Shown: positions 22,008 through 34,856 of the stretch, piece by piece | Numbering within the stretch: position 1 is the stretch's first letter | How the letters are laid out: each line of letters begins with the position of its first letter | Origin: an uncultured virus (IMG/VR IMGVR_UViG_3300045815_000012) | Lineage: Duplodnaviria; Heunggongvirae; Uroviricota; Caudoviricetes | DNA: 34,856 nucleotides | Strand: one strand, 5' to 3' | Virus record (IMG/VR): IMGVR_UViG_3300045815_000012 | Notes under the pieces: model-generated | The model's database searches: none | What the model was told of the DNA's origin: nothing | The model's input: the letters and a program-made list of their open reading frames with translations, nothing else | Translations under genes and position numbers: made by a program

Positions 22008-22018
22008 GCTTGCGCCTC

Positions 22019-22480
22019 CTACTGGCCCAACTCGTTTACTTTTTGTTGGCTCAAATTTGCTAACTCCGCCATGCGTGCGTCTTTTTGTGCTGAATCATTT
22101 TGAGCGTTAGATAGTTCATTACGCAGCTTATCCGCCTCTTGCTGTTTCTGCGTGACTTCCTGTTGCTTAGATTCGACTTCACGTTGTTTGGCTTCGATCT
22201 CAGACTGCTTCGCATTGACCTCGTTTTGTTTGTTTGCCAATTGCTGTTTCAGGCTGTCTAGTTGATCTTGAAGGTTCTTTTGTTGCCCCGTCGTTTGATC
22301 AAGTTTGCTTTGAACGTCTGCAGCCTTCTGTTTGTTCTGCGTAGCAATGTTAGCCAGTTTGTAGATGTTCTGTTCAACAGTTGTTGCGTTATCGAAGAAA
22401 CCAACGCCTGCCGCGAATCCTACAGTCGATCCTAGAAATAATGCAGCGCTAACTCCTAGTGCGATTTTTTTGTTTTTCAT
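22019..22480 (-). CDS. Signal/TM-anchored Gln/Lys-rich coiled-coil protein
   Basis: MKNKKIALGVSAALFLG N-terminus, then heptad repeats (KQNEVNA KQSEIEA KQREVES KQQEVTQ). Confidence 0.8.
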   Translation of the reverse strand: MKNKKIALGVSAALFLGSTVGFAAGVGFFDNATTVEQNIYKLANIATQNKQKAADVQSKLDQTTGQQKNLQDQLDSLKQQLANKQNEVNAKQSEIEAKQREVESKQQEVTQKQQEADKLRNELSNAQNDSAQKDARMAELANLSQQKVNELGQ

Positions 22481-22737
22481 GCTGTTCCCTCCTTTTTCAT
22501 TTCCAAAATATTTTTGTTTAGTTTTGATAACTCTTTGCGCTGTTTTTCTTCTGAAATCACATTTCTAAAACTTTTTCCTGCATTTTCGAATAAAAACCTT
22601 TCGGCTTCACGTATACTAACCAGTTTTTGAGAACTAAATTGAACTGTCTTTATCAAACCTAAGTCGACCAAAATGTAAATGTTATCTTTTGACGTTCTGT
22701 ACTCACTAGCTAATTCCGGTAATGTGTACGCAAGCAT
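22477..22737 (-). CDS. Excisionase-like winged-HTH protein
   Basis: LAYTLPELA..TSKDNIYILVDLGLIK resembles HTH_17/Xis; early operon position. Confidence 0.65.
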   Translation of the reverse strand: MLAYTLPELASEYRTSKDNIYILVDLGLIKTVQFSSQKLVSIREAERFLFENAGKSFRNVISEEKQRKELSKLNKNILEMKKEGTA

Positions 22738-23265
22738 TTAATCATTCCTTTCTCTCGATTCTGCATCCTTGACGATTGCTCTTGAATTGAAATTGTATCG
22801 ATCGCAAACTGAGTTAAAAACTGCAATTTCTGATGAAATCTCGTCTACCACTTCCAACAACCAGAGTTTTATTTCAGTTCTTTCATCGTGACTGATTTCT
22901 TCATTAGATATCGATAGTAAATCCCAAATTTCATATTTCTTTTCTACTTCAATTCTTTCAATTTCTTCTTTGTCTTGACCAACCATTTTTGAAAGTGGAT
23001 GCGCATCTCGACGTTTTCGATTTAATGGTTTTGGTGTATAGAACATCGCAGCAGCTACCTCGAAATCTGTTTCTGGATTTTGCAAGTAATCAGCAATTTC
23101 TACAACTCTTTCTAATCCCATCGTCCGTCTACCATTTAACATGTGACTTAGATTCTGCGCTGAGAAGTTCAGGTGATCAGCCATGACTCTTTGGTTCAAA
23201 GCCTGTTTGTCAACTTCCTGTCTAAAAATAGATGCGACTTGCTTCTCCATCGAAGAAACTCCCAT
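22738..23265 (-). CDS. XRE-HTH domain protein with C-terminal extension
   Basis: NQRVMADHLNFSAQNLSHMLNGRR; ATG at 23265 after AGGAGTG. Confidence 0.75.
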   Translation of the reverse strand: MGVSSMEKQVASIFRQEVDKQALNQRVMADHLNFSAQNLSHMLNGRRTMGLERVVEIADYLQNPETDFEVAAAMFYTPKPLNRKRRDAHPLSKMVGQDKEEIERIEVEKKYEIWDLLSISNEEISHDERTEIKLWLLEVVDEISSEIAVFNSVCDRYNFNSRAIVKDAESRERND

Positions 23266-23330
23266 ATTAATCACTCCTTTTGTATTCAATTGTCATTTTT
23301 CATAGCAGTCATACTGCTATAAACTGTTTA

Positions 23331-23492
23331 TTAGAAGTAGAACATCATGTCTTCAATCAGACGGTCATCCTGTTGACTCTCAACTTCATACAGTTGATTG
23401 ATGAACTGATCCGATTTTGTTTCTAAGTAGGCTTTAGTTAAGTGATCGCCTAAACGTTTAAGTATGAACTCAATTTTTTCTTGTTTTGACAT
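23331..23492 (-). CDS. Small hypothetical protein
   Basis: ATG at 23492 after GGAGGTG; 53 aa. Confidence 0.7.
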   Translation of the reverse strand: MSKQEKIEFILKRLGDHLTKAYLETKSDQFINQLYEVESQQDDRLIEDMMFYF

Positions 23493-23542
23493 TAGATCAC
23501 CTCCATAATTTCTAGTTATTTTTGATTGTACAAACAAACTGG

Positions 23543-23770
23543 TTAATCAATTTGTTCCGTTTTAGTTAACTCCGTTTCCAAAAAAATATCATCTGGTTCT
23601 TTACCGAAAACCAAAGCAATTTTTACGGCATTCTCATAAGAAAGCCTTCTTTTACCTTTTTCGATCATCCAGTAAAATTCCTTTGTAAGTCCAGCGGCAT
23701 CAGCGACCTGTTGAAAAGTTTTTCCATTCTCTTTTCTTATTGTTTCTAAATTTTGCAAAACCATTACCAT
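23543..23770 (-). CDS. cro: Cro-like repressor
   Basis: 75 aa XRE HTH, divergent from cI. Confidence 0.85.
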   Translation of the reverse strand: MVMVLQNLETIRKENGKTFQQVADAAGLTKEFYWMIEKGKRRLSYENAVKIALVFGKEPDDIFLETELTKTEQID

Positions 23771-23782
23771 CCCTCCTTCTAA

Positions 23783-23899
23783 GTTAACCTGATGTTAACT
23801 ACAGTATAGTTAACCGCAAGTTAATTGTCAACTATTTTTATACTCATTTAGTTAACTTTTTTCCAATCAATTGAGTTAACTGTTTGTTAACGGTAAAAT
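23783..23899. promoter_or_regulatory. Lysis/lysogeny switch: divergent promoters and GTTAAC-N5-GTTAAC operators
   Basis: Operators at 23783-23799, 23809-23825 and 23875-23891. Lytic promoter (minus) TTGACA-17-TATACT at 23831-23803; cI promoter (plus) TTGAGT-17-TAAAAT at 23871-23899. Confidence 0.85.
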
Positions 23900-23922
23900 A
23901 ATAAAAGAAACGAGGTGTTAAC

Positions 23923-24579
23923 ATGGACTTTGGATCTCGATTAAAAGAATTACGAGTTTCAAAAAAACTTACTCAACAACAATTAGGAGATAAGATTCAC
24001 GTTTCTAAAGTATCAATTTCTGGTTATGAACGTGGTGAACGTAGTCCTGATAGAGAAACTCTCACTTCTCTCGCAGATTTTTTTGATGTATCTACAGACT
24101 TTCTGTTAGGACGTGAACCTAAAGACATTAATAATTCTGTTGGTATCGGTGGAGTCATTCCAGAGGACTATTCAATTCCTATTTTAGGTAGGATTGCAGC
24201 TTCATCGCCAGCTGGTTTAGTAAGCGATTACGAAGGAGAAATTTTCATACAGCCCTCTACTATAAAAAAGTATGGTAGACACGATATTTTCGCTTTACGA
24301 GTTTTAGGCGATTCAATGAATCGAATCATTCCTGATGGCGCAATCGCAGTAATCAGAAAAAGTTGCGATTGGGAAGATGGAGATATCTGCGCTGTAACAA
24401 TTAATGGAGATGACGCAACTCTCAAACAAGTTCATAAAACAAACCGTGGAATTAGATTTTCACCATTAACTTACTCACGTTTCCACACACCATGGGAATA
24501 TATTAAAGATGAGGACGATGTTGACGTTATCATCCATGGAGTTTTTTTATATGGCATAATACCAACTGATAAAATGTAG
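23923..24579 (+). CDS. cI: CI repressor (XRE HTH + S24 autopeptidase)
   Basis: N-terminal HTH; IPILGRIAAS cleavage region; GDSMN catalytic Ser and TLK catalytic Lys. Confidence 0.92.
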   Translation: MDFGSRLKELRVSKKLTQQQLGDKIHVSKVSISGYERGERSPDRETLTSLADFFDVSTDFLLGREPKDINNSVGIGGVIPEDYSIPILGRIAASSPAGLVSDYEGEIFIQPSTIKKYGRHDIFALRVLGDSMNRIIPDGAIAVIRKSCDWEDGDICAVTINGDDATLKQVHKTNRGIRFSPLTYSRFHTPWEYIKDEDDVDVIIHGVFLYGIIPTDKM

Positions 24580-24594
24580 AATGGAGTGTTAAAT

Positions 24595-25665
24595 ATGGAA
24601 ATGGAAAAATTTAAAGATGATTTAAAACAATTGGGAAAGCGCGTAATAAAGCTAAAAGACAATATTGGTACGGAAGAAGCAACTAAAACTTCACTCATTA
24701 TGCCTTTTTTTGCAGCGTTGGGCTATGATCTATTCGATCCCACTGAATTTGTTCCAGAGTTCACTGCAGACGTGGGTATTAAAAAAGGTGAAAAAGTCGA
24801 TTATGCTATTGTTATCGATAGTAAGCCTACTATTCTAATTGAAGCGAAGTCAATTAATGAAAAATTAACAAAACATGATTCACAACTTTTTAGATACTTT
24901 GGGACTACAGAATCTAAATTCGGGATCTTAACGAATGGTCAAGAATACAAATTTTTTACTGATCTAGATGAACCTAATAAAATGGATTTAGCACCCTTCC
25001 TTACAATAGATATAACAAATATTAAAGACAACCAAGTTCCTGAGTTAGCTAAGTTTCATAAGGAAAATTTTGATGTTGACAAGATTACTAGTTCTGCCGC
25101 TGAGCTTAAATACTTGAGTCGTTTAAAGGATTATTTATCGTCTGAGCTTGACAATCCTAATGATGAGTTTATTAAGTTCCTTCTTGGTGAAATTTATGAT
25201 GGGATGAAAACAAAACAGATCATTGATAAATTTAAACCAATTATAAAAAAAGGACTCAATCAGTTTATCTCTGAAAAGGTAAATGATAAATTAAGCGCTG
25301 CATTAAAATCATCAGTCTCAGTAGATGAATTAGATACTAAATCAGAATCAAATACTACAGAAATTGACGAACCTGAAGTTATTACAACACCTGAAGAACT
25401 AGAGTCATATACTATTGTCAAGGTGGTTTTAAAAGATGTAATTCCTCTTGATCGTTTATTCTATCGTGATAATCGCAGTTACTTCAATATTTTATTAGAT
25501 GATAATATTCGCAAGTGGATTCTAAGAGTACGATTCAATACTAATGGTATGAAGATTGAATTAAATGATGAAAAACACTCTGTGTTTGAATTATCTCAAC
25601 CGATGGATATTAATAATTACGCCAAAGAAATAATCACAATTGTAAATAGATTTAATCAGAAGTAG
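24595..25665 (+). CDS. HsdR_N-type PD-(D/E)XK nuclease-domain protein
   Basis: TEEATK..LIMPF..LGYD, PEF, KVDYAI, IEAK, QLFRYF and ILTNG motifs; no helicase motor. ATG at 24595 after GGAG (track start 24586). Confidence 0.85.
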   Translation: MEMEKFKDDLKQLGKRVIKLKDNIGTEEATKTSLIMPFFAALGYDLFDPTEFVPEFTADVGIKKGEKVDYAIVIDSKPTILIEAKSINEKLTKHDSQLFRYFGTTESKFGILTNGQEYKFFTDLDEPNKMDLAPFLTIDITNIKDNQVPELAKFHKENFDVDKITSSAAELKYLSRLKDYLSSELDNPNDEFIKFLLGEIYDGMKTKQIIDKFKPIIKKGLNQFISEKVNDKLSAALKSSVSVDELDTKSESNTTEIDEPEVITTPEELESYTIVKVVLKDVIPLDRLFYRDNRSYFNILLDDNIRKWILRVRFNTNGMKIELNDEKHSVFELSQPMDINNYAKEIITIVNRFNQK

Positions 25666-25681
25666 AAAAGAGTGGGTTTTT

Positions 25682-26293
25682 ATGGTTGATTGGAAAGATT
25701 TAGGAAAAAGAACCTTCGATGCAACGAAAGATATCACAGAAAAGACAGTCGACTCATTTCAAGAATGGAAAGATGATCCTGAACGAATTGCTAAAGTTGA
25801 AACGAAAAAGGCTACAAAGAAAGCACAGAAAAAAATTGAGAAAGCTGAAAAAATGCAGAAAAAGGAAATCAAAAGAGTAAAAAGCGAACCGGATCATGAT
25901 TATTATTTTACTGAGAAAACATTTGAACCTTTCTCTTCTAAAGGCGTAGTTGAAGAATCGACATATAAAAAGATTAAAAGAGTAAAGCTTTCGAAAATCA
26001 CTCAAGAAGAACCTAATAGAATTTCTATAAAACAAGGTAGAAAAAAAATTGATTTTTTATTGGAAAAAATTGAATTCTCCGACAAAAAAAATTCAACTGG
26101 TGGCGCATTACTCGGTGTTGCAATTGCTGGAACTGCTGGTGCTGTTATTGGTAGCTCGATGAACTCAAGTAAAGTCTATGCAAACTTATACGTCCGTCCA
26201 TTAGATGAAAAAGGAGTGCTACATGTAATTCGTTTTTATGCTGACAATAAAGAAGCTGCTCAACTCTTAAGACTTCAGGCAACGGAGGATTAA
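25682..26293 (+). CDS. Hypothetical protein with glycine-zipper segment
   Basis: 203 aa; GGALLGVAIAGTAGAVIG. Confidence 0.75.
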   Translation: MVDWKDLGKRTFDATKDITEKTVDSFQEWKDDPERIAKVETKKATKKAQKKIEKAEKMQKKEIKRVKSEPDHDYYFTEKTFEPFSSKGVVEESTYKKIKRVKLSKITQEEPNRISIKQGRKKIDFLLEKIEFSDKKNSTGGALLGVAIAGTAGAVIGSSMNSSKVYANLYVRPLDEKGVLHVIRFYADNKEAAQLLRLQATED

Positions 26294-26294
26294 A

Positions 26295-27233
26295 ATGAAA
26301 AAACTAACGATTGTATTCTTACTCTGCTCTACCCTGCTCTTATCAGCATGTTCGGGCGATAAGAAGGCTGATACGACTGATTCGACTAGAACTAAACTTA
26401 CAACGAGTAGTTCAACTCAGAAAAAAGAAGCGATAAGTTTGGATTCTATATTGGAAAAGTTCAAGGATGATGGATTAACAGTTGATGAGGCTAAATCCAT
26501 GAACAAGGAAGATTTCGGTATGGCTCCAATGTCTGCTAAAGAAGCGAAGATTTTTGGTATTCAAAAAGATGATTCAGGCGACTACATGAATGGCAGAATT
26601 TTTCTGTTTGAAAAAGAAAAAGACCTAACTAAAACAAAAGACTATTATGATGAACTTGGTAAAGAGTCGGCAATGGCCTTCTCTTACACTGCAGCAAATG
26701 AAAAGAAATTAGTTCTAATGCAGTTCAATGGAGATTTACCTCAGGATCTAGTTCAAAAATATGCTGACTCTGCTGAACTCGAGTTTACTCATTCTAATTT
26801 CACTAGTTCACATGATTCAACAAGTAACTCTAGCAAGCAAAGCAACGGTAACTTGACTAACAATACCAATACACAATCTTCAGCGTCACAGGGCCTAGGC
26901 TATGGTGATCATAATGCGAACATTAGAGACGCAAGGTATCAAGAAGCTATTGAAAAAGGCGCTACTGAACAAGAAGCTACTGATTTTGCAAACGGAAGCG
27001 AGCCAACATACGTTCCAAAAACTCCTGAACCATCTGCGGACGCACAAGGTTCTAGCGCTCAACAAGATGCCGACACCTTATCTCTTACAGACTTTGTAAA
27101 TAAGTACGGCATGTCACCTGCAGCTTGGAAAGTGCAAAATGGAATGTCAGAGGAAGAAGCGTTAAGAAGCACCCAAAATCTTACCTCTGGTGAGATGCAA
27201 CTCGCCTTTTCGAAGTACGGAATTCAGAAGTAA
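26295..27233 (+). CDS. Lipoprotein (possible superinfection exclusion)
   Basis: Lipobox LSAC after a signal peptide; Ser/Thr-rich linkers; located in the lysogeny module. Confidence 0.8.
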   Translation: MKKLTIVFLLCSTLLLSACSGDKKADTTDSTRTKLTTSSSTQKKEAISLDSILEKFKDDGLTVDEAKSMNKEDFGMAPMSAKEAKIFGIQKDDSGDYMNGRIFLFEKEKDLTKTKDYYDELGKESAMAFSYTAANEKKLVLMQFNGDLPQDLVQKYADSAELEFTHSNFTSSHDSTSNSSKQSNGNLTNNTNTQSSASQGLGYGDHNANIRDARYQEAIEKGATEQEATDFANGSEPTYVPKTPEPSADAQGSSAQQDADTLSLTDFVNKYGMSPAAWKVQNGMSEEEALRSTQNLTSGEMQLAFSKYGIQK

Positions 27234-27321
27234 TTGATTTCCAATAACTCTGGTAAGTTTGTTTAACTGGTGGCTACTTCTACCTGCCATAATTGGGAGT
27301 TAAAATGATTTTTTTTGGAGG

Positions 27322-28566
27322 ATGCATATGGCAACTTTGTTAGTGTTAGTAGGATTTTTTGGATTTATTTTTGGTGTAGTAAGACTAATTAGAGCGTTTT
27401 TCAAGAAAACACCTAAGAAGCCAGAACTTTTAATTATTCTTGGTACTGTTATTGTATTTTTTGCTGGTGGAACTCTCTTAGAACCATCTGAACAAAAGTC
27501 AGCAGAAACAACCATAAGCAGCACACAGCAAAGTAAAACTGGAAACAAATCTTCATCCAGCTCTAGTGAAACAAAAAAAGAACAAGACAAATCTTCGGAT
27601 GAAAAGAATAAGCAAAAACAAGCACTTATCTCTTTTAATGATCGTGTGAAGCAAGATAATACTAATCTTGCAAATATGGAATACAATGGCACGCAAACGA
27701 TTGAAATTAATGATAATAATCCAACGTTTTCGGAAGATGATTTATCTTTGGCCAATAAAGCTTGGGAAAAATACGGGGACCTTGATCAACTAAACCGTGC
27801 TACTTCTGCCGAAGCTATGCTGAATCAATCATTGATGCCTGCAGCTAAACGTGGAGATATTTCTAATGTTAAGCCTACTGGCTGGCATAATAAGAAAATT
27901 GGTAAAGGATATCTCTATAATCGATCTCATTTGATTGGCTATACCCTTTCTGGTGAAAACGATAATTGGAAGAATCTGATCACAGGAACAGCACAGTTAA
28001 ATAATCCAGAGATGCTTCGCTATGAAATGGATATAAAATATTATCTGGAAAAAAGTAAAGATAACTATGTACGGTACTCAGTAACTCCTGTATTCCGTGG
28101 TGATGAATTACTTGCTCGCGGCGTTCATTTAATGGCTCAATCAATTAAATCTGACGACATTAAATTTAATGTTTATATCTTCAATGTACAAGATGATGTA
28201 ACTTTGAATTATTTAGATGGAACAAGCCAAACTAAAAGCGAGATTCTTGCTGCTCAACAAAAAGAAGAAGAAAGAAAAAATGCTGAAATTAAAGCTCAAC
28301 AAGCTGCTGAAGAACAACAGCGAATTGAAGCTCAAAAGCAAGCTGAGGCAGCTCAAAGCGCAGCGAATGAACAACAAGCAGCCGCTACTCAAACAAATGG
28401 TCCAGAATACGTTGATGCCAACGGGAACGGATTAATCAAAGGTTCTAACAACGGAATATATCACGTTCCAGGGAGCAGATATTATGATAAAACAACTAAT
28501 CCAGCAGCTTTGTTTAAAACAGTTGATGAAGCTGAAAGAGCCGGATATCGCGCTCCTAGAAATTAG
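27322..28566 (+). CDS. Membrane-anchored DNA/RNA non-specific endonuclease (EndA/streptodornase-like)
   Basis: Two N-terminal TMs; [25 protein letters not shown] and YSVTPVF motifs; C-terminal [19 protein letters not shown] domain. Confidence 0.88.
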
Positions 28567-28571
28567 TACTG

Positions 28572-28600
28572 CCTCCCCACCTAACTCTGCAAGTTCGATT
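28572..28600 (+). repeat. Truncated copy of the tRNA-like element
   Basis: CCTCCCCACCTAACTCTGCAAGTTCGATT aligns ungapped with 28789-28817. Confidence 0.6.
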
Positions 28601-28629
28601 AGATCCAAAAAGAAAGAAGGTGAATCGAA

Positions 28630-28782
28630 ATGTCAGATGAAGAAATTAGAAAAGCGGCTCACGATCTAGCGATCATTTATTTGGAAAAAGTGGACTTAGA
28701 TCACAAATCTGCCAAGCAAGTAGCTAACTACTACGTGCAAGCGAAAAAAGACATTGAAAAAGTTTTACGAGAAAAAGATTAG
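28630..28782 (+). CDS. Small 50-aa protein (not in ORF track)
   Basis: GAAGGTG RBS; MSDEEIRKAAHDLAIIYLEKVDLDHKSAKQVANYYVQAKKDIEKVLREKD*. Confidence 0.7.
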   Translation: MSDEEIRKAAHDLAIIYLEKVDLDHKSAKQVANYYVQAKKDIEKVLREKD

Positions 28783-28790
28783 CTCTACCC

Positions 28791-28830
28791 TCCCCGCCTG
28801 GCGCCGCCGGTTCGATTCCGGTTCGGGGAA
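28791..28830 (+). ncRNA. tRNA-like minihelix (acceptor stem + T-arm only)
   Basis: TCCCCG pairs with CGGGGA; T-arm GCCGG-TTCGATT-CCGGT; an 8-nt linker replaces the D and anticodon arms. Confidence 0.55.
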
Positions 28831-28862
28831 TAAAAAATGCAGTGAAGTGAAAGGAAATTTAT

Positions 28863-30629
28863 ATGGCTTGGAAGAATCCACAACATTATTATATTTCAAA
28901 TGCAACTTTTGAGAATTTTAGAATCATCAACAATATCAATTTTAAACCAGCGAAACATTTAAATATTTTAGCGGGAAAAAACGGGACTGCAAAATCAACG
29001 ATTCTTGGTATGATTGCACAAGGCTTCTCATTTAATCCAAAAATTATTTATGACATATCAAAAACAGAGTATGAAACTATTAATTCGAAAACAAACCCCA
29101 CCCCTGCTGAAATAGAAAAGATGCAACTATTCGAGAGTATTACTACTTATAATGAGAAAAATTTTGAATCCCGTGCAGATGAACACTTCAAGCTTTCGAC
29201 AGCAGATGTTAAAAGGAAAAGGCATGCCTCTATTACCATGAAAGCAAATCAGAACAATAAGCCAGACATCAATTACTTAATTGAAAGCAATGATTATGCT
29301 GATCGTCGAAATCCTAGATTAGTTACCAGAAGAATAAACAATATAGATGAAAGTTCTACGGATACTTCATCTTCAAATATTATATTTCCAGTGATATATC
29401 TTGGCTTAAAAAGAGTTAATCCGATTGTTCAAGAACGAGGACTAAAGGAAAAAAACTATGGATTACCTGAATCCGATATTGAAGAAATTTTTGATTTATA
29501 TCAATCAATTTTATTAAAAAAATACAATTCTAATTTTATTGGAATTAGTAATAATAACGATAAGAGGACTGCTGCCTTTATTCCTAAAGAAAGATCCATC
29601 GAAATGATTTCCTCTGGAGAGGATAACATTGGACAAATCTTACTGGCATTATATTCATTTAAAAAACTTAAAAAAAATTATGATGAATATTCTGGTGGAA
29701 TTTTGTTAATTGATGAAATTGACGTCACTTTATATCCAGCAGCACAAATAAGGTTATTAAAAATACTATATAGCAAGGCAAAAGAATTTGGTATCCAAAT
29801 TTTTTGCACTACACATTCACTTGAACTAATAGAGTACGCAATGGACTTAAAATTAAGTCCAAATAATAGAAATTTAATTGAGTTGTTTAATCTAAATATC
29901 GAACATCGTGATCTAGGCATTATGCCTATCACCAACATAAATACGATAAAAAATCAGTTTTTTGTCGCAGCCGAAAAGGAAATGAGTAGTGAAAAAATTC
30001 CTGTATACTTTGAAGATAAAGAAGCAATCTATGTTTTTAAAGGGCTAGTTACTAAGAAGAAAATTCTGTCATATTTAAATATTCAAAACAGTTTTTCTCT
30101 CGGTTGCACAGAATTATTAAAATTGCACAAATTTAAAATCCCTGAATTCAACGCTAGATCAATTGTCTGTTTGGATGGAGACAATGTCGCACCAAAAAAT
30201 ATTAAAAATTATATAAATCTACCATCTGAAAATAAATATCCTCCAGAACGATTTGTTTTTGAAATACTTGACGATAATAATTCTGAGTACTGGGATAATA
30301 CCAAAAATTATTCCCACGAAATATTTATGAATAATCCACATTACGACATTATCAAACGTATCTTGCGTGATACATACGCAAATGATGATGGCCCATATAA
30401 CATTGTCCATTCTGATTATTATAAAAAGAAACCTCGTGAAGTTTGGAAAATGTGGTTTAAACACGAACAATTAAATTGGAAAGGCCCTAACAATCCCGTT
30501 AAGTTTTGGAAAAGTAAAAACAATCTATCTCCAAGTCTCGAAAAATTCTATGAGGATTTAAAGAAATCAATCGAATATGTTGCAAATAAAAGTGGTATTG
30601 ACATTAGCGATATTGAACATCTATTGTAA
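28863..30629 (+). CDS. ABC-type ATPase fused to TOPRIM-like nuclease domain (OLD/PARIS-like)
   Basis: Walker A GKNGTAKS, signature SSGE, Walker B ILLIDEID, H-loop TTHS; C-terminal VYFEDKEA, CLDGD (DxD) and PPE. AT-rich. Confidence 0.85.
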   Translation: MAWKNPQHYYISNATFENFRIINNINFKPAKHLNILAGKNGTAKSTILGMIAQGFSFNPKIIYDISKTEYETINSKTNPTPAEIEKMQLFESITTYNEKNFESRADEHFKLSTADVKRKRHASITMKANQNNKPDINYLIESNDYADRRNPRLVTRRINNIDESSTDTSSSNIIFPVIYLGLKRVNPIVQERGLKEKNYGLPESDIEEIFDLYQSILLKKYNSNFIGISNNNDKRTAAFIPKERSIEMISSGEDNIGQILLALYSFKKLKKNYDEYSGGILLIDEIDVTLYPAAQIRLLKILYSKAKEFGIQIFCTTHSLELIEYAMDLKLSPNNRNLIELFNLNIEHRDLGIMPITNINTIKNQFFVAAEKEMSSEKIPVYFEDKEAIYVFKGLVTKKKILSYLNIQNSFSLGCTELLKLHKFKIPEFNARSIVCLDGDNVAPKNIKNYINLPSENKYPPERFVFEILDDNNSEYWDNTKNYSHEIFMNNPHYDIIKRILRDTYANDDGPYNIVHSDYYKKKPREVWKMWFKHEQLNWKGPNNPVKFWKSKNNLSPSLEKFYEDLKKSIEYVANKSGIDISDIEHLL

Positions 30630-30675
30630 TAGATTATTGGCCAAAAGACATTTAATTTGATAATATGGAATTGAG

Positions 30676-31560
30676 GTGATCATAATGCCACACACAAAAT
30701 CCCCGCTTAGGTATCCAGGTGGGAAAACTCAGTTATGGAAGTTTGTAGATTCGACAATTAAGCAGAACAATATAATCGCTCCAATCTATTGCGAGCCTTT
30801 TGCGGGTGGGGCCGGGGTGGCCATTGAATTACTTCTTATTAAAAAAGTTGAAGAAATTATCATAAATGATTTTGACCCCGCTATTTATAATTTTTGGAGA
30901 GCTATTATAAATGATACAGATAAATTTATTCAGTTAATCAATACTACTGAAATTTCTATCGAAGAATGGCATAATCAAAAAGAAATATATAGTAATTGCG
31001 GCAGAGTCATAGGCTCATTAGAAGGTGCATTTGCTACCTTCTTTCTGAATCGGACAAACGTTAGCGGTATTATTTCTGGCGGTCCCATTGGTGGACGCAA
31101 TCAAAATGGAAAATACAAAATTGACTGCCGTTTTAATAAGTTAAATCTAATAAAAAAAATCAGAAATATTGCTGAGCAAAAAGACAAAATTCATTTGTAC
31201 AATGAAGATGCTGCAAATCTTGTTGAATTACTAAAAAAAGAGTATCCAAAAGATCGTCTTTTCATTTTCTTTGATCCCCCATACTACGTTCAAGGACAAT
31301 CCTTGTATCTATCTTTTTATAAAAAATATCAACATCAACTTATTAGAGATAAAATATTAAGTATGGATGATTATTATTGGATTTTAACTTATGACAAGGC
31401 TCCACAAATTTCTGAACTCTATTCTAAAGCTGATAAAGGGTTTCAATACTCTTTAAATTATTCAGCTAATAAGAAGCGCGTGGCTAATGAATATATTTTT
31501 GCCAGTTCTGTAACACGCCTACTTTCGACTAATAAAGTTGATCTTCAACCAATTACTTAA
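30676..31560 (+). CDS. Dam-like (D12 class) DNA adenine methyltransferase
   Basis: SPLRYPGGK, EPFAGGA, IIND, FFLNR and DPPYY motifs. Start 30676 or 30685. Confidence 0.92.
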   Translation: MIIMPHTKSPLRYPGGKTQLWKFVDSTIKQNNIIAPIYCEPFAGGAGVAIELLLIKKVEEIIINDFDPAIYNFWRAIINDTDKFIQLINTTEISIEEWHNQKEIYSNCGRVIGSLEGAFATFFLNRTNVSGIISGGPIGGRNQNGKYKIDCRFNKLNLIKKIRNIAEQKDKIHLYNEDAANLVELLKKEYPKDRLFIFFDPPYYVQGQSLYLSFYKKYQHQLIRDKILSMDDYYWILTYDKAPQISELYSKADKGFQYSLNYSANKKRVANEYIFASSVTRLLSTNKVDLQPIT

Positions 31561-31565
31561 AGATT

Positions 31566-31585
31566 AGCCTTCGGGCTTTTCTTTT
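31566..31585 (+). terminator. Terminator after the methylase gene
   Basis: AGCC-TTCG-GGCT followed by TTTCTTTT. Confidence 0.55.
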
Positions 31586-31595
31586 AACATCAAAA

Positions 31596-31609
31596 AGAAC
31601 ATACGTTTG
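31596..31609 (+). promoter_or_regulatory. LexA (Cheo)-like box upstream of int
   Basis: AGAACATACGTTTG versus consensus CGAAC-N4-GTTCG. Confidence 0.45.
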
Positions 31610-31650
31610 TTTACATCAATACCAATCTGAATACAAAAGGAGCGTTTGTT

Positions 31651-32802
31651 ATGAATGGACATGTAAGAAAAATCGGCAACAAATGGCACTATACCATCGA
31701 AATGGCAAAAGTTGGCGGTAAACGTCAGCGTATACAAAAAGGTGGATGGAATACAAAAACTGAGGCACAAGAACATCTAAGAGAAGCGCTGAACGAATAT
31801 AAACGTGGCGGTAAAGTGGATTTAACGGATATTAGTGTTTCTGATTATTTTGATTACTGGTTTGAAAATTATGTTGAGAAGAAACTTAAGTATAATACGC
31901 AAAAAAACTATAAAAATGTAATTGATAAATACGTGAAGCCAGAAATTGGGAAATACCTACTTCAATCAATAGGCCCTGCGAAATTGCAGGAGCTTGTAAA
32001 TAAACTACCTGAAGGATTTAATAAACAGCTCTCAAAACATTCTGTAGAGATTATCTTCACTGTCCTAAAAGGTGCATTTCGAAGAGCAGTCTTCCCTTAT
32101 CAACTAATTAATAGCAATCCAATGGACTATGTCGAAATGCCGGCATTCCCTTCTAAACCAAAACAGTCAAGAGATGATATGAAAATTATAACAATGGATC
32201 AGTACCTTAAAATTTTAGATAACACCCCTATTTCGGATTCTTTTCACATTCCTCTTGTCATTGCTTTCCACACAGGGTTGCGTCGCGGCGAAGTTTGTGG
32301 GATGACCTGGGACAATGTGTCATTTGAAGATCAGACTTTAACTATCACTAAAATTATGTTACAAGACAAGAATGGGATACAAATAGGAACACCCAAAACG
32401 CAGGCTAGTTATCGAACCATCAGTATTGATGACATGCTGCTTGAAGAGTTAAAAAGCCATAAAAAAAGACAATTAGAAAACAGAATGAGATATGGAAAGT
32501 TTTATTATGAAAGTTCATTTGTATGTACTAAAGAAAACGGACAGCCTGTCACACCAAATTCAATAAAATGGTCAGCAAGTAAAATCAAGAAGAATTTAGG
32601 TATTAACTTTAACTTCCATTCTTTGAGACACACGCATGCAACAATGCTCTTAGAGGATGGAGTAAAACCGAAAATTGTTCAAGAAAGACTCGGCCATTCG
32701 AGGATTTCTACTACTATGGATAAATATGTACATGTTACTAAGAAAATGAGAACTGAAGCCGTTGATATTTTCGCCGAACGTCTTCGCCGTTCAATGAACT
32801 AA
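31651..32802 (+). CDS. int: Tyrosine integrase
   Basis: N-terminal arm-binding domain; TGLRRGE, PKT, HSLRHTHAT, LGHS and catalytic Y (MDKYVH). Confidence 0.97.
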   Translation: MNGHVRKIGNKWHYTIEMAKVGGKRQRIQKGGWNTKTEAQEHLREALNEYKRGGKVDLTDISVSDYFDYWFENYVEKKLKYNTQKNYKNVIDKYVKPEIGKYLLQSIGPAKLQELVNKLPEGFNKQLSKHSVEIIFTVLKGAFRRAVFPYQLINSNPMDYVEMPAFPSKPKQSRDDMKIITMDQYLKILDNTPISDSFHIPLVIAFHTGLRRGEVCGMTWDNVSFEDQTLTITKIMLQDKNGIQIGTPKTQASYRTISIDDMLLEELKSHKKRQLENRMRYGKFYYESSFVCTKENGQPVTPNSIKWSASKIKKNLGINFNFHSLRHTHATMLLEDGVKPKIVQERLGHSRISTTMDKYVHVTKKMRTEAVDIFAERLRRSMN

Positions 32803-32823
32803 ATTCGCTCTTTTTCATTAAAA

Positions 32824-33129
32824 ATGTTCGCCCAAATAAAACATCGGGCGAACATTGGGCGAATTTTTATGAAAATCACAATCATTCATAGCGGATATTT
32901 TCAAACAAACCCTTATTTCTTCTTGGGTTCATCCTCATCCATTTTCAGAACGGCCATGAATGCCTCTTATCTTATTTCCTGATTCACAAAGGTTTAAGAG
33001 TTCCTCAAGAGGTTTAATAATACCTAGACAAATATACTTCATCAGGTAACAAATATCAAATTCAAGCTCTAACGATATTGGTGATTACTCATGCAGTTTT
33101 TAGCTTTGGGCGGCGATATGACGAACAAT
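32824..33129. other. attP-type attachment site with replacement lepA 3' end
   Basis: Minus strand 32966-32913 encodes EAFMAVLKMDEDEPKKK*, like the LepA C-terminus. Arm-type GGGCGAACA repeats at 32824-32865, degenerate copies at 33107-33129. Confidence 0.8.
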
Positions 33130-33151
33130 CAAATTTAATAAATTGTTCCCC

Positions 33152-33180
33152 TTCACAACCGGAACATATGTTTGTATGAT
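33152..33180 (+). promoter_or_regulatory. Putative SOS-regulated promoter
   Basis: TTCACA-17-TATGAT with GGAACATATGTTTG (LexA-like) in the spacer. Confidence 0.6.
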
Positions 33181-33208
33181 ATAAATATCTTATTCTAGGG
33201 GTGATCGT

Positions 33209-33463
33209 ATGAAATCGTTAAATGGTATTGTAAGTAGCGTAAAAATTCTTAAGTATTCTGAACGTCCCCTCGTCTATTTTAAGCTTGATGATACTAGCTG
33301 TTTGATTGCTGGTCACTCGTTGAATTTTTTTGCAGATGTAGAGGATGGAATGCGGATCGCTGTTGCTGGCGAGTACAATAGTAGGAAACAGTTCATTGTG
33401 CGGAAATATAGTGTGATCGGAGAAACTAGAATCATGTTAGAGTTAAATCGATTGTCAGTTTAA
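33209..33463 (+). CDS. Small OB-fold-like protein, probably SOS-induced
   Basis: 84 aa beta-rich protein (GIVSSVKILK..PLVYFKL..IAVAGEYNSRKQFIV); GGGGTG RBS. Confidence 0.7.
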   Translation: MKSLNGIVSSVKILKYSERPLVYFKLDDTSCLIAGHSLNFFADVEDGMRIAVAGEYNSRKQFIVRKYSVIGETRIMLELNRLSV

Positions 33464-33517
33464 TTCTAAATTGCTATTGTTCTGATTATTTTTATAAAGT
33501 ATCATATAGAAAGAAAG

Positions 33518-34420
33518 GTGGTAAAAGTGTTGGCAAAGTACGAATTTTCTGTAAGATATGCAGGAGAAGCTTTGGTTGATGGAAGGATTCCTATCAGAGA
33601 CTTGGCTCCTTCTTTGTTAGCTCTTTCTGAAGCCTTTCAAGAAATACAACAGATCACTCATCCATATCAACAACCTGTTTCACTAGATATTAAGGCTTCT
33701 GAAAAAGGATCGTTTATTGTTGATTTAATATTAGCAAATGGAAACGATTTGTTGTCGAGTGCTATTGATTTACTAAATGGAAATGAATCAGAAGCTTTAA
33801 GAAATTTAATTGAACTGGCTACTGGTTTCACAGCAGCAGTTATTTTCATTACCAAAGTAGGTAAAAAGAAAATAAAAAGAAAAAAAGAATTGCCTGAAGG
33901 AGAAGTAAAGATTACTTTGGACGATGAAACTTCAATTACTGTTTCCAAAGATGTTTTTGAAGCATATAGAAATGTTGAATTTAGAAAAACGACTAAGGAA
34001 TTTGTTCGGCCGTTAGAATCAGAAGGTATTGAAGCAATTGAATTTTCAACTGAGAAAAATGCTTCTGTGTCAATATCTAAGCAAGATGTCTCAGCTTTTG
34101 ATGTTCCAGAGATTGAAGATAAAGAATTCCCTTCAACTGAAAGTACTGTATATTTGCAAATTATCAATATTTCATTTGCGAATGAAAAATGGAAACTGAC
34201 TGATGGTAACAAACCTTTTTGGGCAAAAATTGAAGATGAAGAATTTCTCACTTCTATTGAAAATAATCAACAACAATTCGGTGCTAGTGATGCTCTAAAA
34301 GTTATACTGGAGACACAGCAAAAGTTTACTGACAATGGTTTGAAAACGGAGTATTCTGTAAAAAAAGTAATCGAACACATTAAAGGGCCCAAACAATTAA
34401 AATTGGATTTTGAAGAATAA
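33518..34420 (+). CDS. Hypothetical acidic protein (moron-like)
   Basis: ~300 aa with YAGEAL.DG.I..RDLAPSLLAL and GSFIVDL motifs. Followed by terminator TACCTTCTCT/AGAGGAGGTA plus T-run (34435-34463). Confidence 0.8.
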   Translation: MVKVLAKYEFSVRYAGEALVDGRIPIRDLAPSLLALSEAFQEIQQITHPYQQPVSLDIKASEKGSFIVDLILANGNDLLSSAIDLLNGNESEALRNLIELATGFTAAVIFITKVGKKKIKRKKELPEGEVKITLDDETSITVSKDVFEAYRNVEFRKTTKEFVRPLESEGIEAIEFSTEKNASVSISKQDVSAFDVPEIEDKEFPSTESTVYLQIINISFANEKWKLTDGNKPFWAKIEDEEFLTSIENNQQQFGASDALKVILETQQKFTDNGLKTEYSVKKVIEHIKGPKQLKLDFEE

Positions 34421-34474
34421 TCATTCTTTTTGCGTACCTTCTCTAAAAGAGGAGGTATTTTTTATGTACCCTGT

Positions 34475-34546
34475 AGGGCCTTGTAGGACTCGAACCCGCA
34501 TCTTCCGATATGAACCGGAGTATTCTACCAATTGAACTAGGAATAC
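34475..34546 (-). pseudogene. Degenerate tRNA (CAT anticodon, Met/Ile2-like)
   Basis: D-arm TAGTTCAATTGGTAGAATA, anticodon arm TCCGG-TTCATA-TCGGA (6-nt loop), T-arm GCGGG-TTCGAGT-CCTAC. The acceptor stem does not pair. Confidence 0.7.
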
Positions 34547-34591
34547 TCTTAAATAAGGATTATTATTTTTAAAACGTGTTATAATACAGAA

Positions 34592-34656
34592 TAGAACGTC
34601 AGATCTTCCCCACAGTCCACTTCCCCAAGTAACTGTATCTGACGTTCCCTTTTTTT
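34592..34656 (+). ncRNA. Candidate small RNA with two CUUCCCCA motifs
   Basis: Extended -10 TGTTATAAT at 34577-34585; 11-bp stem GAACGTCAGAT/ATCTGACGTTC; terminal T7. Confidence 0.6.
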
Positions 34657-34744
34657 ATGGGCGAGTGACTTCCCATTAAAATTAACTTACCCATAAAACG
34701 TTTACTTTGCAAATGATACACTCATGACAAAGTGATACACTACA

Positions 34745-34835
34745 CAAAGAAACAACCAGCCCGCACACGACTGGTTGCCGATCAAGATGAAACTTAGTTA
34801 TGAAAAAGAAGTAAGTTCTGGCAAAACTTACACAT
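34745..34835 (-). ncRNA. Candidate small RNA
   Basis: Minus-strand hairpin GTAAGTT/AACTTAC, U-rich linker, terminator CAACCAG/CTGGTTG plus TTTCTTT. Confidence 0.35.
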
Positions 34836-34856
34836 TCATAATAGCTCTTTTGTTAA

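What the first reader, a model, noticed from the sequence alone, without database searches (positions are those of the whole stretch)
28572..28830. Duplicated tRNA-minihelix element flanking a 50-aa ORF directly upstream of the ATPase-TOPRIM gene
Seen: 28791-28830 is a GC-rich island folding as an acceptor stem (TCCCCG/CGGGGA) stacked on a canonical T-arm (GCCGG-TTCGATT-CCGGT), with only 8 nt in place of the D and anticodon arms. A second copy (28572-28600) aligns ungapped (CCTCCCC-R-CCT...GC..GTTCGATT) but stops after the T-loop. Each copy starts 5-6 nt after a TAG stop, bracketing an unannotated 50-aa gene. A possible third remnant is TAACTCTGGTAAGTTTG near 27245. Established: acceptor/T-arm minihelices are substrates for RNase P and RNase Z, and the PARIS TOPRIM effector AriB cleaves tRNA. 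Inference: an mRNA-processing signal that segments the lysogeny operon, a tRNA-mimic antitoxin or decoy for the adjacent nuclease, or a recombination boundary for moron exchange.
Basis: partly seen in the sequence, partly recalled or inferred. Interest (0 to 1): 0.75.

Follow-up and report, generated by a model that had tools for sequence, protein, structure and literature searches.

The report
tRNA-like element heading prophage defence cassette
A 40-base stretch that folds like the top half of a tRNA is kept, once per virus, in dormant Enterococcus viruses just in front of their swappable anti-virus defence genes, most likely as a cutting signal for the cell's tRNA-trimming enzymes.

Summary
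Window 28791-28830 is an acceptor-stem/T-arm minihelix with an 8-nt linker. It is not a tRNA gene and matches no Rfam family. It belongs to a conserved family: across 26 distinct relatives, 96.9% of stem positions pair and 6 of 11 pairs show two-sided compensatory changes.

The copy at 28572-28600 is a real but decayed homologue. It sits exactly where related phages carry the intact element. A third remnant at 27245-27265 has weaker support.

The element is not tied to the ATPase gene. The same element precedes SIR2, TIR, HipA-like, PDC-S19, ParA-like and ATPase+methylase cassettes. It occurs once per phage, co-oriented with the cI-to-int lysogeny operon, at the left edge of the variable cassette. 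So the antitoxin idea fails.

No tRNA in 185,579 species genomes carries this 3' end, so it is not a plain att scar.

Best reading (about 0.4, inferred): a t-element-like RNase P/Z processing signal that separates the repressor operon transcript from whichever defence cassette follows. The main rival is a DNA-level exchange junction. No RNA ends were mapped.

Similar minihelices, with the same core but different covarying stems, occur in unrelated environmental phage contigs.

The parts
28789..28830 (+). Intact tRNA-like minihelix. Acceptor-like stem 28791-28796 with 28824-28829. Unpaired C 28797 opposite T 28823. Linker CTGGCGCC 28798-28805. T-stem 28806-28810 with 28818-28822 (the outer pair is G.T). 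T-loop TTCGATT 28811-28817. Discriminator-like A 28830.
   Evidence: The fold is the MFE structure. It is the only covariance-model hit in the window, 70.7 bits, E 7e-15. Pairing is kept in relatives.
28572..28613 (+). Decayed copy of the element, A-type 5' strand CCTCCCCA. Recognisable through the T-loop (28572-28600); the 3' part is eroded.
   Evidence: 22 of 29 identity, the best in the window. 15 of the 19 differences over 42 nt are G/C to A/T. It lies 5 nt after the endonuclease stop, exactly where L088, L090, L091 and L092 carry an intact A-type element. No fold and no model hit.
27245..27265 (+). Possible third, older remnant after the lipoprotein gene.
   Evidence: It aligns with the decayed copy (17 of 20 positions plus one gap; score 20; 8 of 2000 shuffles) but not with the intact element. 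L021 and L086 carry the intact element directly after the homologous lipoprotein gene.
28630..28782 (+). 50-aa ORF lying between the decayed and the intact copy.
   Evidence: Conserved at 88-100% amino-acid identity in 11 viral loci. No Pfam or PADLOC family.
28863..31560 (+). Variable defence cassette of this phage: a 588-aa ABC-type ATPase (28863-30629) and a D12 adenine methylase (30676-31560).
   Evidence: AAA_21 and AAA_15 domains. GajA/PtuA/AriA-like ATPase models match; the methylase matches PD-Lambda-5_B at 2e-111. No TOPRIM by Pfam.
31566..31585 (+). Terminator-like hairpin AGCC-TTCG-GGCT plus a T-run at the right edge of the cassette, 85 nt before int.
   Evidence: The same hairpin lies 85-94 nt before int in 11 of 11 loci with a related integrase; in 2 of them (L125, L128) the first base differs. 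In cassette-less relatives it directly follows the 50-aa ORF. The tool's terminator scan, which needs 5 or more stem pairs, does not list it.
31651..32802 (+). Tyrosine integrase, the last gene of the plus-strand lysogeny operon that starts with the S24/HTH repressor at 23923.
   Evidence: Phage_integrase, SAM_3 and Arm-DNA-bind_4 domains.
27322..28566 (+). Membrane-anchored DNA/RNA non-specific endonuclease gene, the upstream neighbour of the decayed copy.
   Evidence: Endonuclea_NS_2, 6.6e-36.

Best explanation
The element is a cis-acting RNA signal that mimics the top half of a tRNA: acceptor stem stacked on the T-arm, with a short GG-containing linker in place of the D-loop. It is transcribed as part of the long repressor-to-integrase lysogeny transcript.

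Proposed mechanism (inferred, not shown): the host tRNA-maturation enzymes recognise it. RNase P cuts at its 5' edge, before T28791. RNase Z cuts after the discriminator-like A28830. This separates the upstream repressor/conversion-gene RNA from the RNA of whichever defence cassette sits between the element and int. Cassettes can then be swapped without changing the upstream message, and each arrives with a ready expression context but no promoter of its own. A roughly 40-nt tRNA-like RNA would be released as a by-product.

Shown: the fold, its conservation, its position and its orientation. Inferred: cleavage and its consequence.
For: Fold and covariation.
- 26 distinct sequences give 96.9% of 286 stem cells paired.
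- 6 of 11 pairs change on both sides; only 1 of 500 shuffles reaches 6.
- Partners slid by 1-3 columns pair at 65% or less.
- The acceptor strands were not part of the metagenome pattern or the second viral pattern. The acceptor 5' strand and 3' strand were part of the earlier patterns.

tRNA-like sequence features.
- Members found by the model rather than by a pattern (L117, L125) keep TTCGATT and CTGG while changing both stems compensatorily: TCTCTA/TAGAGA, GTCGG/CCGAC, GACGG/CCGTC.
- The T-arm fits GGTTCRANYCC, the motif used to find plant-mitochondrial t-elements, which are cut by RNase P/Z (PMC1920247, passages read).
- In true tRNAs hit by the same pattern, CCTG is the anticodon-stem 3' strand and GCGNC is the variable loop. 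The element therefore looks like a tRNA with about positions 8-39 removed.

Position and orientation.
- It is co-oriented with both flanking genes in every Enterococcus-type locus examined.
- Only 32 nt separate it from the ATPase start, and no promoter-like or terminator-like site lies nearby, so the cassette must be read through it.
- It occurs once per phage: 8 of 8 viral records have exactly one full hit, and the window has one. Displaced older copies have decayed, which argues that one copy at this position is under selection.

Precedent. RNase P is known to cut phage C4 antisense RNA precursors and polycistronic mRNAs (PMC11143913, passage read).
Against: - No RNA end was mapped. All four RNA runs are assembled contigs, which cannot show ends. 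Two of them bridge the element in a single 7.4-kb contig.
- Folding energy is not better than shuffles.
- Processing alone does not explain why the linker CTGG is so conserved. An elbow mimic is my inference.
- Wobble pairs do not settle the strand. About 9 cells pair only on the plus strand (G.U), against 4-5 cells that would pair only on the minus strand.
- Some members have a mismatch at the sixth acceptor pair: T.T in L104, L108 and L109; G.G in L043.
- The element is dispensable. L006/L018 carry a TIR cassette behind a variant that lacks the T-arm.
- 6 of 11 phages with a related integrase have no element, and four of those six (L123, L126, L127, L129) still carry extra genes before int.
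- Much of the apparent invariance of the linker and T-arm comes from the search patterns used.
Confidence: 0.4

Rival explanations
1. DNA-level exchange junction. The G+C-rich 40-bp island, together with the terminator-like hairpin next to it, is the left-hand recombination site at which defence cassettes are swapped or added between related phages. Exchange would occur by short-homology recombination or by a site-specific enzyme that uses the T-arm (5-bp inverted repeat around a 7-bp spacer) as a core site.
For: - Homology between phages starts or stops exactly at the element's edges. The upstream genes differ in L032, L021, L051 and L057; the downstream genes differ in L009, L013, L027 and L020.
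- Fossil copies after the lipoprotein and endonuclease genes look like a record of successive additions at this site.
- The cassette is bracketed by copies of the same hairpin: directly 5' of the element in L071, L079 and L018, and before int in 11 of 11 loci, first base differing in 2.
- Three cassette-less relatives have the hairpin alone and no element.
- The element always lies 0.6-5.5 kb from a record end. In the Enterococcus-type loci int follows the cassette, and in L078 int lies 1.8 kb away.
Against: - Double-stranded recombination sites do not need compensatory changes between a 5' and a 3' strand. The stem covaries through four or more different sequences.
- G-type and A-type elements never appear as chimeras (A with C, or G with T) at the sixth pair among 26 distinct sequences, which does not fit frequent crossovers inside the element.
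- The same element occurs with two unrelated integrase types, 383 aa and 406 aa. It also occurs in a chromosomal intergenic region with no integrase within 1.5 kb either side.
- There is only one copy per phage, not one per cassette.
- Boundaries at the edge of a variable segment are expected whatever the element does.
Confidence: 0.22
2. Trans-acting tRNA mimic. The released, possibly CCA-tailed minihelix is itself the functional product in lysogens. It could be a decoy or sensor for enzymes that bind or attack the tRNA acceptor/T-arm or elbow, from the host, from incoming phages or from defence effectors in general. It could also be a small regulator, like the RNase P-processed C4 RNA of P1/P7.
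For: - Sequence, and not only pairing, is conserved in the T-loop and in CTGG of the linker, even in model-found divergent members. This suggests recognition by tRNA-binding proteins beyond simple cleavage.
- It is expressed from the lysogeny operon next to defence genes.
- Minihelices with the same core and other stems occur in unrelated phage contigs.
- There is precedent for processed phage regulatory RNAs (PMC11143913).
Against: - There is no evidence that a stable small RNA accumulates.
- No complementary target site was looked for or found.
- The variety of neighbouring cassettes argues against a partner-specific role.
- It is dispensable in L006/L018.
Confidence: 0.13
3. Functionless relic. 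The element is the remains of a tRNA gene or of an old attachment-site repeat (a tRNA 3' end left by integration), carried along passively.
For: - The linker, T-arm and 3' strand look like the last roughly 33 nt of a tRNA.
- True att-type 3' fragments were seen with the same pattern, for example the second match in L039, and L062.
- Older copies in the window do decay.
Against: - No tRNA with this T-arm 3' half plus acceptor 3' strand exists in one genome of each of 185,579 species. There were 7 hits; 3 are the Enterococcus element itself, 4 lie in G+C-rich MAG contigs, and 0 of 7 is a tRNA.
- No tRNA in three Enterococcus genomes lies within 2 mismatches of the linker plus T-arm.
- An att scar has no reason to carry a complementary 5' strand, still less a covarying one.
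- The element lies inside the prophage, not at its end. The end is near 32966.
- It is kept at 90% or higher identity while both flanks are replaced.
Confidence: 0.07
4. Antitoxin or decoy specific to the adjacent ATPase(-TOPRIM) defence protein, by analogy with PARIS.
For: Only adjacency in this window and in L032/L075. The ATPase matches AriA/GajA/PtuA-type ATPase models.
Against: - The identical or near-identical element precedes SIR2 (PDC-S25), TIR (PDC-S66), PDC-S19, HipA_2+DUF3037 (PDC-M66), ParA-like and small-ORF cassettes.
- Pfam finds no TOPRIM domain in the protein.
- The methylase partner points to a PD-Lambda-5-like pair instead.
Confidence: 0.02

Closest known systems
t-elements of plant mitochondria (Forner et al. 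2007, PMC1920247; passages read)
   Same: Non-coding tRNA-like structures inside longer transcripts. They carry the GGTTCRANYCC T-arm motif and an acceptor-like stem, lie between or beside protein genes, and their ends coincide with mRNA ends made by RNase P and RNase Z.
   Different: t-elements sit in organelle genomes, are non-canonical cloverleaves of varied shape, and are not tied to mobile cassettes. Cleavage has been mapped for them. Here nothing has been mapped, the element is a strict two-helix minihelix, and it sits at a prophage defence hotspot.
tRNA-like domain of tmRNA and synthetic acceptor/T-arm minihelices (recalled textbook knowledge; tmRNA is listed among RNase P substrates in PMC11143913)
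   Same: Acceptor stem coaxial with a T-arm, a reduced D-loop substitute, and recognition by RNase P and other tRNA enzymes.
   Different: In tmRNA the two strands of the acceptor stem are about 300 nt apart and enclose an mRNA-like part. ARAGORN finds no tmRNA here. There is no encoded CCA and no G3:U70-type identity pair.
RNase P-processed phage regulatory RNAs (C4 antisense RNA of P1/P7; reference list and passage in PMC11143913)
   Same: A small structured RNA embedded in a temperate phage's immunity or lysogeny transcript and released by a host tRNA-processing enzyme.
   Different: C4 acts by base-pairing to target sites in the same operon. No target complementarity was examined here, and there is no sequence relation.
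tRNA 3'-end repeats (attL/attR) left by tyrosine-integrase prophages and islands (general knowledge; examples seen in L039 and L062)
   Same: Contains a tRNA-type variable-loop, T-arm and acceptor 3' strand. Lies in a prophage near an integrase gene.
   Different: No matching tRNA exists. It carries a covarying 5' acceptor strand. It is internal to the prophage. It is the same element across two integrase types.
Defence hotspots of P2-like phages and P4-like satellites
   Same: A fixed position in a temperate element where unrelated anti-phage systems replace one another between conserved flanks.
   Different: In my recollection those hotspots are bounded by conserved protein genes. Here the left boundary is a conserved tRNA-like non-coding element and the right boundary is a conserved hairpin before int.

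Membership tests
tRNA gene | Full cloverleaf with D-arm and anticodon arm, detectable by tRNA finders and by Rfam RF00005 | tested here: not met
   ARAGORN finds 0 genes in the window. Rfam at E up to 10 over 27000-29200 gives 4 chance matches, none tRNA. Only 8 nt lie between the acceptor 5' strand and the T-stem.
t-element-like tRNA mimic (works-like class, not a sequence family) | T-arm with the GGTTCRANYCC motif | tested here: met
   GGTTCGATTCC at 28809-28819. The same loop is kept in all 26 distinct relatives, including L117 and L125, which were found by the model rather than by a pattern.
t-element-like tRNA mimic (works-like class, not a sequence family) | Acceptor-like stem directly abutting the T-stem and maintained by selection | tested here: met
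   5 of 6 acceptor pairs show two-sided changes and 95.5% of cells are paired. Exceptions are listed in the report.
t-element-like tRNA mimic (works-like class, not a sequence family) | Transcript ends coincide with the element's ends (RNase P / RNase Z cleavage) | not testable with these tools
   Only assembled RNA contigs were available. They cannot show ends.
Integration scar (tRNA 3' end repeat) | Identity to the 3' part of a host tRNA gene | tested here: not met
   0 of 7 exact-pattern hits in 185,579 species genomes is a tRNA. The Enterococcus genomes G002-G004 hold only the element itself within 2 mismatches.
Integration scar (tRNA 3' end repeat) | Located at a prophage or island end as one of two direct repeats | tested here: not met
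   The 21-nt 3' half occurs once in the window at up to 3 mismatches. The prophage end is near 32966, about 4.1 kb downstream.
Integron attC-type cassette site | One site per cassette in an array, served by an IntI-type integrase (features recalled) | tested here: not met
   There is one full copy per phage. The integrases are ordinary phage integrases with an arm-binding domain, and of two different types.
Intrinsic terminator | G+C-rich hairpin followed by a T-run on the transcribed strand | tested here: not met
   The element is followed by AATAAAAAA, and nothing is listed at this place by the scan.
RNA partner of the adjacent ATPase defence protein (PARIS-like idea) | Consistent genomic linkage of the element with that protein family | tested here: not met
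   At least eight different cassette types follow the element.
Any Rfam family | Match at or near the gathering score | tested here: not met
   Best overlapping match is 20.2 bits to SNORD22 (gathering score 50), on the minus strand.

The most novel reading that the evidence does not exclude
Temperate phages of Enterococcus, and by the look of freshwater and actinobacterial contigs other phages too, carry a portable tRNA-top-half 'socket'. It is a conserved minihelix placed right after an operon's terminator-like hairpin. Host RNase P and RNase Z would cut there, turning read-through transcription into a separate message for any promoterless defence cassette plugged in behind it. The cut would also release a CCA-tailed tRNA mimic that acts in its own right, for example as a decoy or sensor for tRNA-directed weapons. 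If so, tRNA mimicry would be a general organising principle of prophage defence hotspots.
Probability: 0.15. Interest if true: 0.8.

Novelty: new variant of a known kind. Interest (0 to 1): 0.6.

Why it matters
Prophage defence hotspots are known as places where anti-phage systems replace one another. How a newly arrived, promoterless cassette gets expressed without disturbing the repressor operon is not understood.

A conserved tRNA-like processing signal at the entry of such a hotspot would give a concrete, testable answer. It would also extend the 't-element' way of punctuating transcripts from organelles to bacterial viruses.

Practically, the 42-nt covariance model is a cheap marker for finding variable defence cassettes in Enterococcus prophages. 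Here it pointed to eight cassette types, several of them only 'PDC' candidates or unannotated.

If instead the element is a recombination junction, it marks where these phages exchange immunity genes. Either way, the family is not in Rfam. I also found no description of it in four full-text searches, which cover open-access papers and preprints only.

Tried and rejected
- Folding energy as evidence: the z-score is 0.10 on the plus strand and 0.21 on the minus strand, so it is uninformative.
- Rfam: only chance hits to eukaryotic families.
- BLAST of the region and of 26000-34856 against 50,697 phage records: no match. The nearest held virus record, G001, lacks the region. The window's own assembly is not held.
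- Promoter inside or just after the element: none was listed. My own look for a -35 box upstream of the TATAAT that follows the element in L020, L035 and L037 found none.
- RNA evidence. Four metatranscriptome runs hold the region only as contigs. In X17 the contigs stop at 28790 and restart at 28846. In X23 they stop at 28704 and restart at 28819. X1 and X3 bridge 25545-32966 in one contig. The stops are not at one place, so this is no evidence for or against cleavage. In X1 and X3 the lysogeny-operon contigs have 2-3 times the word depth of the lytic-gene contigs, which is a poor measure.
- Wobble pairs as a strand test: about 9 against 4-5 cells, not decisive.
- Third remnant against the intact element: ungapped best in that spacer is 17 of 42, which is background; 21-23 occur elsewhere by chance. 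MAFFT suggested another register at 27262-27305 against L021, which I could not evaluate statistically.
- Strict rule 'element present if and only if a cassette is present': rejected. L123, L126, L127 and L129 carry extra genes before int without the element, and the window's own HSDR_N-like gene follows cI without one.
- Look-up of earlier scan notes by sequence: nothing.
- Reading the 5' strand as an anticodon loop (TCC or GCC in the middle): positions 33 and 37 do not fit a tRNA loop, so I dropped it.
Full report
**1. Setting.**

- The window is most of a temperate siphovirus-type prophage.
- Genes from 1 to about 23770 run on the minus strand.
- From 23923 a plus-strand lysogeny operon runs in this order:
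  - S24/HTH repressor, 23923-24579
  - HSDR_N nuclease-like gene
  - two genes without a Pfam family above its cut-off, one with a lipoprotein-like N-terminus (26295-27233)
  - membrane-anchored non-specific endonuclease, 27322-28566
  - 50-aa ORF, 28630-28782
  - 588-aa ABC-type ATPase, 28863-30629
  - D12 adenine methylase, 30676-31560
  - tyrosine integrase, 31651-32802
- Between 23500 and 33300 the scan lists no terminator-like site on the plus strand before 31291 and no promoter-like site next to the element.
- Contigs of three RNA libraries diverge from the window after 32966, so the prophage end lies about there.

**2. The observation.**

- Its minimum-free-energy fold is the proposed minihelix: a 6-bp acceptor-like stem, an unpaired C opposite an unpaired T, an 8-nt linker, a 5-bp stem and a TTCGATT loop.
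- The energy is no better than that of shuffles (z 0.10), so energy is not evidence.
- ARAGORN finds no tRNA or tmRNA in the window.
- Rfam gives only chance matches.
- The second copy is real.
  - CCTCCCCRCCT occurs twice, against 0.12 expected, each time followed 21 nt later by GTTCGATT.
  - 28572-28600 matches at 22 of 29, the best place in the window on either strand; the next best is 18.
  - It has lost the fold.
  - 15 of its 19 differences over 42 nt are G/C to A/T.
- The third remnant (27245-27265) resembles the decayed copy (8 of 2000 shuffles reach the score) but not the intact one.
- Pfam does not find a TOPRIM domain in the ATPase.

**3. Relatives and ascertainment.**

Relatives were collected in three ways.

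(a) Exact degenerate patterns.
- Viral contigs gave 3, 8 and 15 loci.
- Species genomes gave 7 loci.
- Metagenomes gave 35 loci, which break down as follows:
  - 15 are true tRNA-Phe or tRNA-Arg genes
  - 6 are tRNA 3' fragments or unclear tRNA-like ends (L036, L048, L049, L054, L055, L062)
  - 2 appear to lie in G+C-rich coding sequence and form no minihelix (L033, L059)
  - 6 are Enterococcus-type elements (L035, L037, L046, L051, L052, L057)
  - 6 are minihelices of another kind (L041, L043, L044, L047, L064, L066)
- In the true tRNAs, CCTG is the 3' strand of the anticodon stem and GCGNC is the variable loop. The element's linker, T-arm and 3' strand therefore look like the last third of a tRNA joined to a 5' acceptor strand.

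(b) Protein anchors, which do not depend on the element.
- 50-aa ORF. Eleven close loci were found and 8 have downstream sequence.
  - 4 have the full element.
  - 1 (L006) has a variant lacking 11 nt between two CCGGTTCG repeats, that is, no T-arm.
  - 3 (L010, L011, L014) have only a terminator-like hairpin.
- Endonuclease. Ten full-length loci were found.
  - 4 have an intact element directly after the stop.
  - 5 have the decayed copy followed by the 50-aa ORF.
  - 1 ends at the contig edge.
- Integrase. Eleven loci have 75% or higher identity.
  - 4 have the full element.
  - 1 has the T-arm-less variant.
  - 6 have none.

(c) A covariance model, R1, built from 21 sequences.
- It found divergent members in two further Enterococcaceae genomes (L116/L117, 39.6 bits).
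- It also found divergent members in L125 and L128 (42 bits).

Census.
- 11 of 134 Enterococcaceae species genomes carry a pattern match. There are 12 matches and none is a tRNA.
- 3 of 151 sampled Lactobacillales genomes have a model hit.

**4. Structure support.**

- On 30 sequences (26 distinct), 96.9% of 286 stem cells form standard pairs. Controls with the 3' partner slid by 1-3 columns give 27-65%.
- 6 of 11 pairs change on both sides; 1 of 500 shuffles reaches that number.
- Acceptor stems seen are TCCCCG/CGGGGA, TCCCCA/TGGGGA, TCCCCT/AGGGGA, TCTCTA/TAGAGA, GCCCTG/CAGGGC and GCCTGA/TCAGGC.
- The second T-stem pair is C-G, U-G, U-A or A-U.
- Rows dropped before the counts: true tRNAs, tRNA fragments, coding hits, the truncated L041 and exact duplicates.
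- Exceptions within the counts:
  - T.T at the sixth acceptor pair in L104, L108 and L109
  - G.G at the sixth acceptor pair in L043
  - C.A in L044 and L047, and in the T-stem of L109
  - A.C in L113
  - C.A at pair 1 in L125
- The invariance of the linker and T-arm in pattern-found rows is by construction. It is meaningful only in the anchor-found and model-found rows, which keep TTCGATT and CTGG.
- Wobble pairs do not decide the strand: about 9 cells favour the plus strand and 4-5 the minus strand.

**5. What it accompanies.**

- The element stands once per phage.
  - 8 of 8 viral records have exactly one full hit, 0.6-5.5 kb from a record end.
  - The window has one hit.
- It is co-oriented with both neighbours in every Enterococcus-type locus read.
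- The upstream neighbour varies: the 50-aa ORF, the endonuclease, the lipoprotein, an ImmA-like gene or others.
- The downstream neighbour is a variable cassette that ends at a conserved hairpin before int:
  - ATPase plus PD-Lambda-5_B-like methylase: window, L032, L020, L035/L037
  - SIR2 PDC-S25: L027, L046, L057, L125
  - TIR PDC-S66: L071, and L018 with the variant element
  - PDC-S19: L021
  - HipA_2 plus DUF3037, PDC-M66: L009
  - ParA-like plus two ORFs: L013, L079, L091
  - small ORFs: L019, L086
  - an unassigned gene: L051
- This breaks the link to the ATPase that the antitoxin idea needs.
- The hairpin AGCC-TTCG-GGCT plus T-run lies 85-94 nt before int in 11 of 11 integrase-anchored loci; in L125 and L128 its first base differs.
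  - In cassette-less L010, L011 and L014 it follows the 50-aa ORF directly.
  - In L071, L079 and L018 a copy lies immediately 5' of the element without its T-run.
- The element is not obligatory for extra genes. L123, L126, L127 and L129 have genes before int without it.

**6. Fossil copies.**

- Related phages carry the intact element after the lipoprotein gene (L021, L086), after the endonuclease gene (L019, L020, L046, L088-L092) or after the 50-aa ORF (window, L009, L013, L027, L035).
- In the window, the first two positions hold a faint and a clear decayed copy respectively.
- The leader of the 50-aa ORF in L014 is another decayed copy. By my reading of the sequences, it differs from the element's linker and T-arm only by transitions to A/T.
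- So genes have been added at this point repeatedly. Only the copy next to the cassette stays intact.

**7. Not an att scar.**

- No genome among 185,579 species representatives has a tRNA ending in this T-arm 3' half plus acceptor 3' strand: 7 hits, 0 tRNAs.
- Three Enterococcus genomes hold nothing but the element within 2 mismatches of the linker plus T-arm.
- The element is internal to the prophage and has a covarying 5' strand.

**8. Beyond Enterococcus.**

- Freshwater-type contigs (L043, L044, L047, L064, and L082 in the viral set), L066, and a G+C-rich viral contig (L078) carry the same core with other, pairing acceptor stems.
- In the freshwater group it follows a strong terminator by 3-8 nt and precedes a small secreted-protein gene.
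- In L078 it follows an HTH_17 excisionase-like gene, and an integrase lies 1.8 kb away.
- Because these were found with a pattern that fixes the core, only their stems are independent evidence.
- L117 is a chromosomal intergenic copy upstream of a 250-aa membrane protein, followed by a small hairpin.

**9. Mechanism.**

- I commit, at about 0.4, to a t-element-like processing signal. The read-through lysogeny transcript would be cut by RNase P at the 5' edge and by RNase Z after the discriminator-like A. This would uncouple the repressor-operon RNA from the RNA of the exchangeable cassette.
- The upstream RNA would then end shortly after a hairpin in those phages that have one there.
- Shown: the fold, covariation, a tRNA-type T-loop, co-orientation, single copy, position, and the absence of a promoter in the 32 nt before the ATPase start.
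- Inferred: transcription through the element, cleavage, and the benefit.
- From recalled knowledge:
  - Acceptor/T-arm minihelices are substrates of RNase P, RNase Z and the CCA-adding enzyme.
  - GG in the D-loop pairs with the T-loop to form the elbow, which may explain the conserved CTGG.
  - 5'-proximal hairpins stabilise Firmicute mRNAs, which may explain the small hairpin seen a few nt after the element in L019, L071, L018, L086, L112, L113 and L117.
- Read here: t-elements (PMC1920247, passages), and RNase P substrates including phage C4 RNA and polycistronic mRNAs (PMC11143913, passages and reference list).
- The main rival is a DNA-level exchange junction (0.22). It explains the boundaries and the fossils, but not the covariation or the missing chimeras.
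- A trans-acting tRNA mimic (0.13) is compatible with the best reading and is not excluded.

**10. Novelty.**

- The family is absent from Rfam.
- I found no description in four full-text searches. These cover open-access papers and preprints only, and supplements were not searched.
- Earlier notes of this scan report similar tRNA top-half mimics in other viruses (e1-5744610, e1-3435932). These are unchecked AI notes and not independent support.
- I rate the finding a new variant of a known kind (a tRNA-like processing element), now tied to a prophage defence hotspot. Interest is 0.6, because function is unproven while the conservation, position and breadth are solid.

Noticed in passing
window 30676-31560 with 28863-30629: The methylase matches PADLOC PD-Lambda-5_B at 2e-111, and the ATPase matches generic GajA/PtuA/AriA ATPase models. 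The pair is probably a PD-Lambda-5-like system. The ATPase's C-terminal 258 aa have no Pfam match, so TOPRIM is not confirmed.
   Followed up: partly
window 31566-31585; also L010, L014, L018-L021, L027, L119-L129: A conserved hairpin AGCC-TTCG-GGCT plus T-run, followed by AAAAGAACATACGTTTG-like sequence, lies 85-94 nt before int in 11 of 11 related loci (first base differs in 2). Copies of the hairpin also end other genes of the operon.
   Followed up: partly
window about 32966: Contigs of three RNA libraries (X1, X3, X17) leave the window's sequence right after 32966. This is likely the prophage/host junction or a strain difference.
   Followed up: no
L006/L018 (viral contig), element position: A variant element lacks 11 nt between two CCGGTTCG direct repeats. 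The T-arm is gone but the outer stem remains, and the phage still carries a TIR cassette.
   Followed up: partly
L043, L044, L047, L064, L066, L078, L082: Minihelices with the same linker and T-arm but different, pairing acceptor stems occur in G+C-rich freshwater-type and actinobacterial-type phage contigs, mostly just after a terminator.
   Followed up: partly
L117 1501-1543 (and L116): A divergent member (39.6 bits) lies in an A+T-rich chromosomal spacer upstream of a 250-aa membrane protein. No phage gene was recognised within 1.5 kb, though these ORFs were not scanned against any family library.
   Followed up: partly
L019, L071, L018, L086, L112, L113, L117: 5-12 nt after the element: A small hairpin (for example ACCGTG...CACGGT) often follows the element and precedes the ribosome-binding site of the next gene. 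It is absent in the window.
   Followed up: no
L039/L056 (sediment metagenome contig) 471-493 and 3001-3023: A genuine tRNA-Phe and, 2.5 kb downstream, a repeat of its 3' part from the anticodon stem onward. This is a textbook integration scar and a useful contrast to the element.
   Followed up: no
window 24586-25665: An HSDR_N/PD-(D/E)XK nuclease-like gene sits directly after the repressor. Homologues hold the pre-int position in L126, L127 and L129 without any tRNA-like element.
   Followed up: no
window 16000-32966 in RNA libraries X1 and X3: Contigs over the lysogeny operon have about 70-90 word depth against 20-45 over the lytic genes. This fits lysogenic expression, but depth of contigs is a poor measure.
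   Followed up: no
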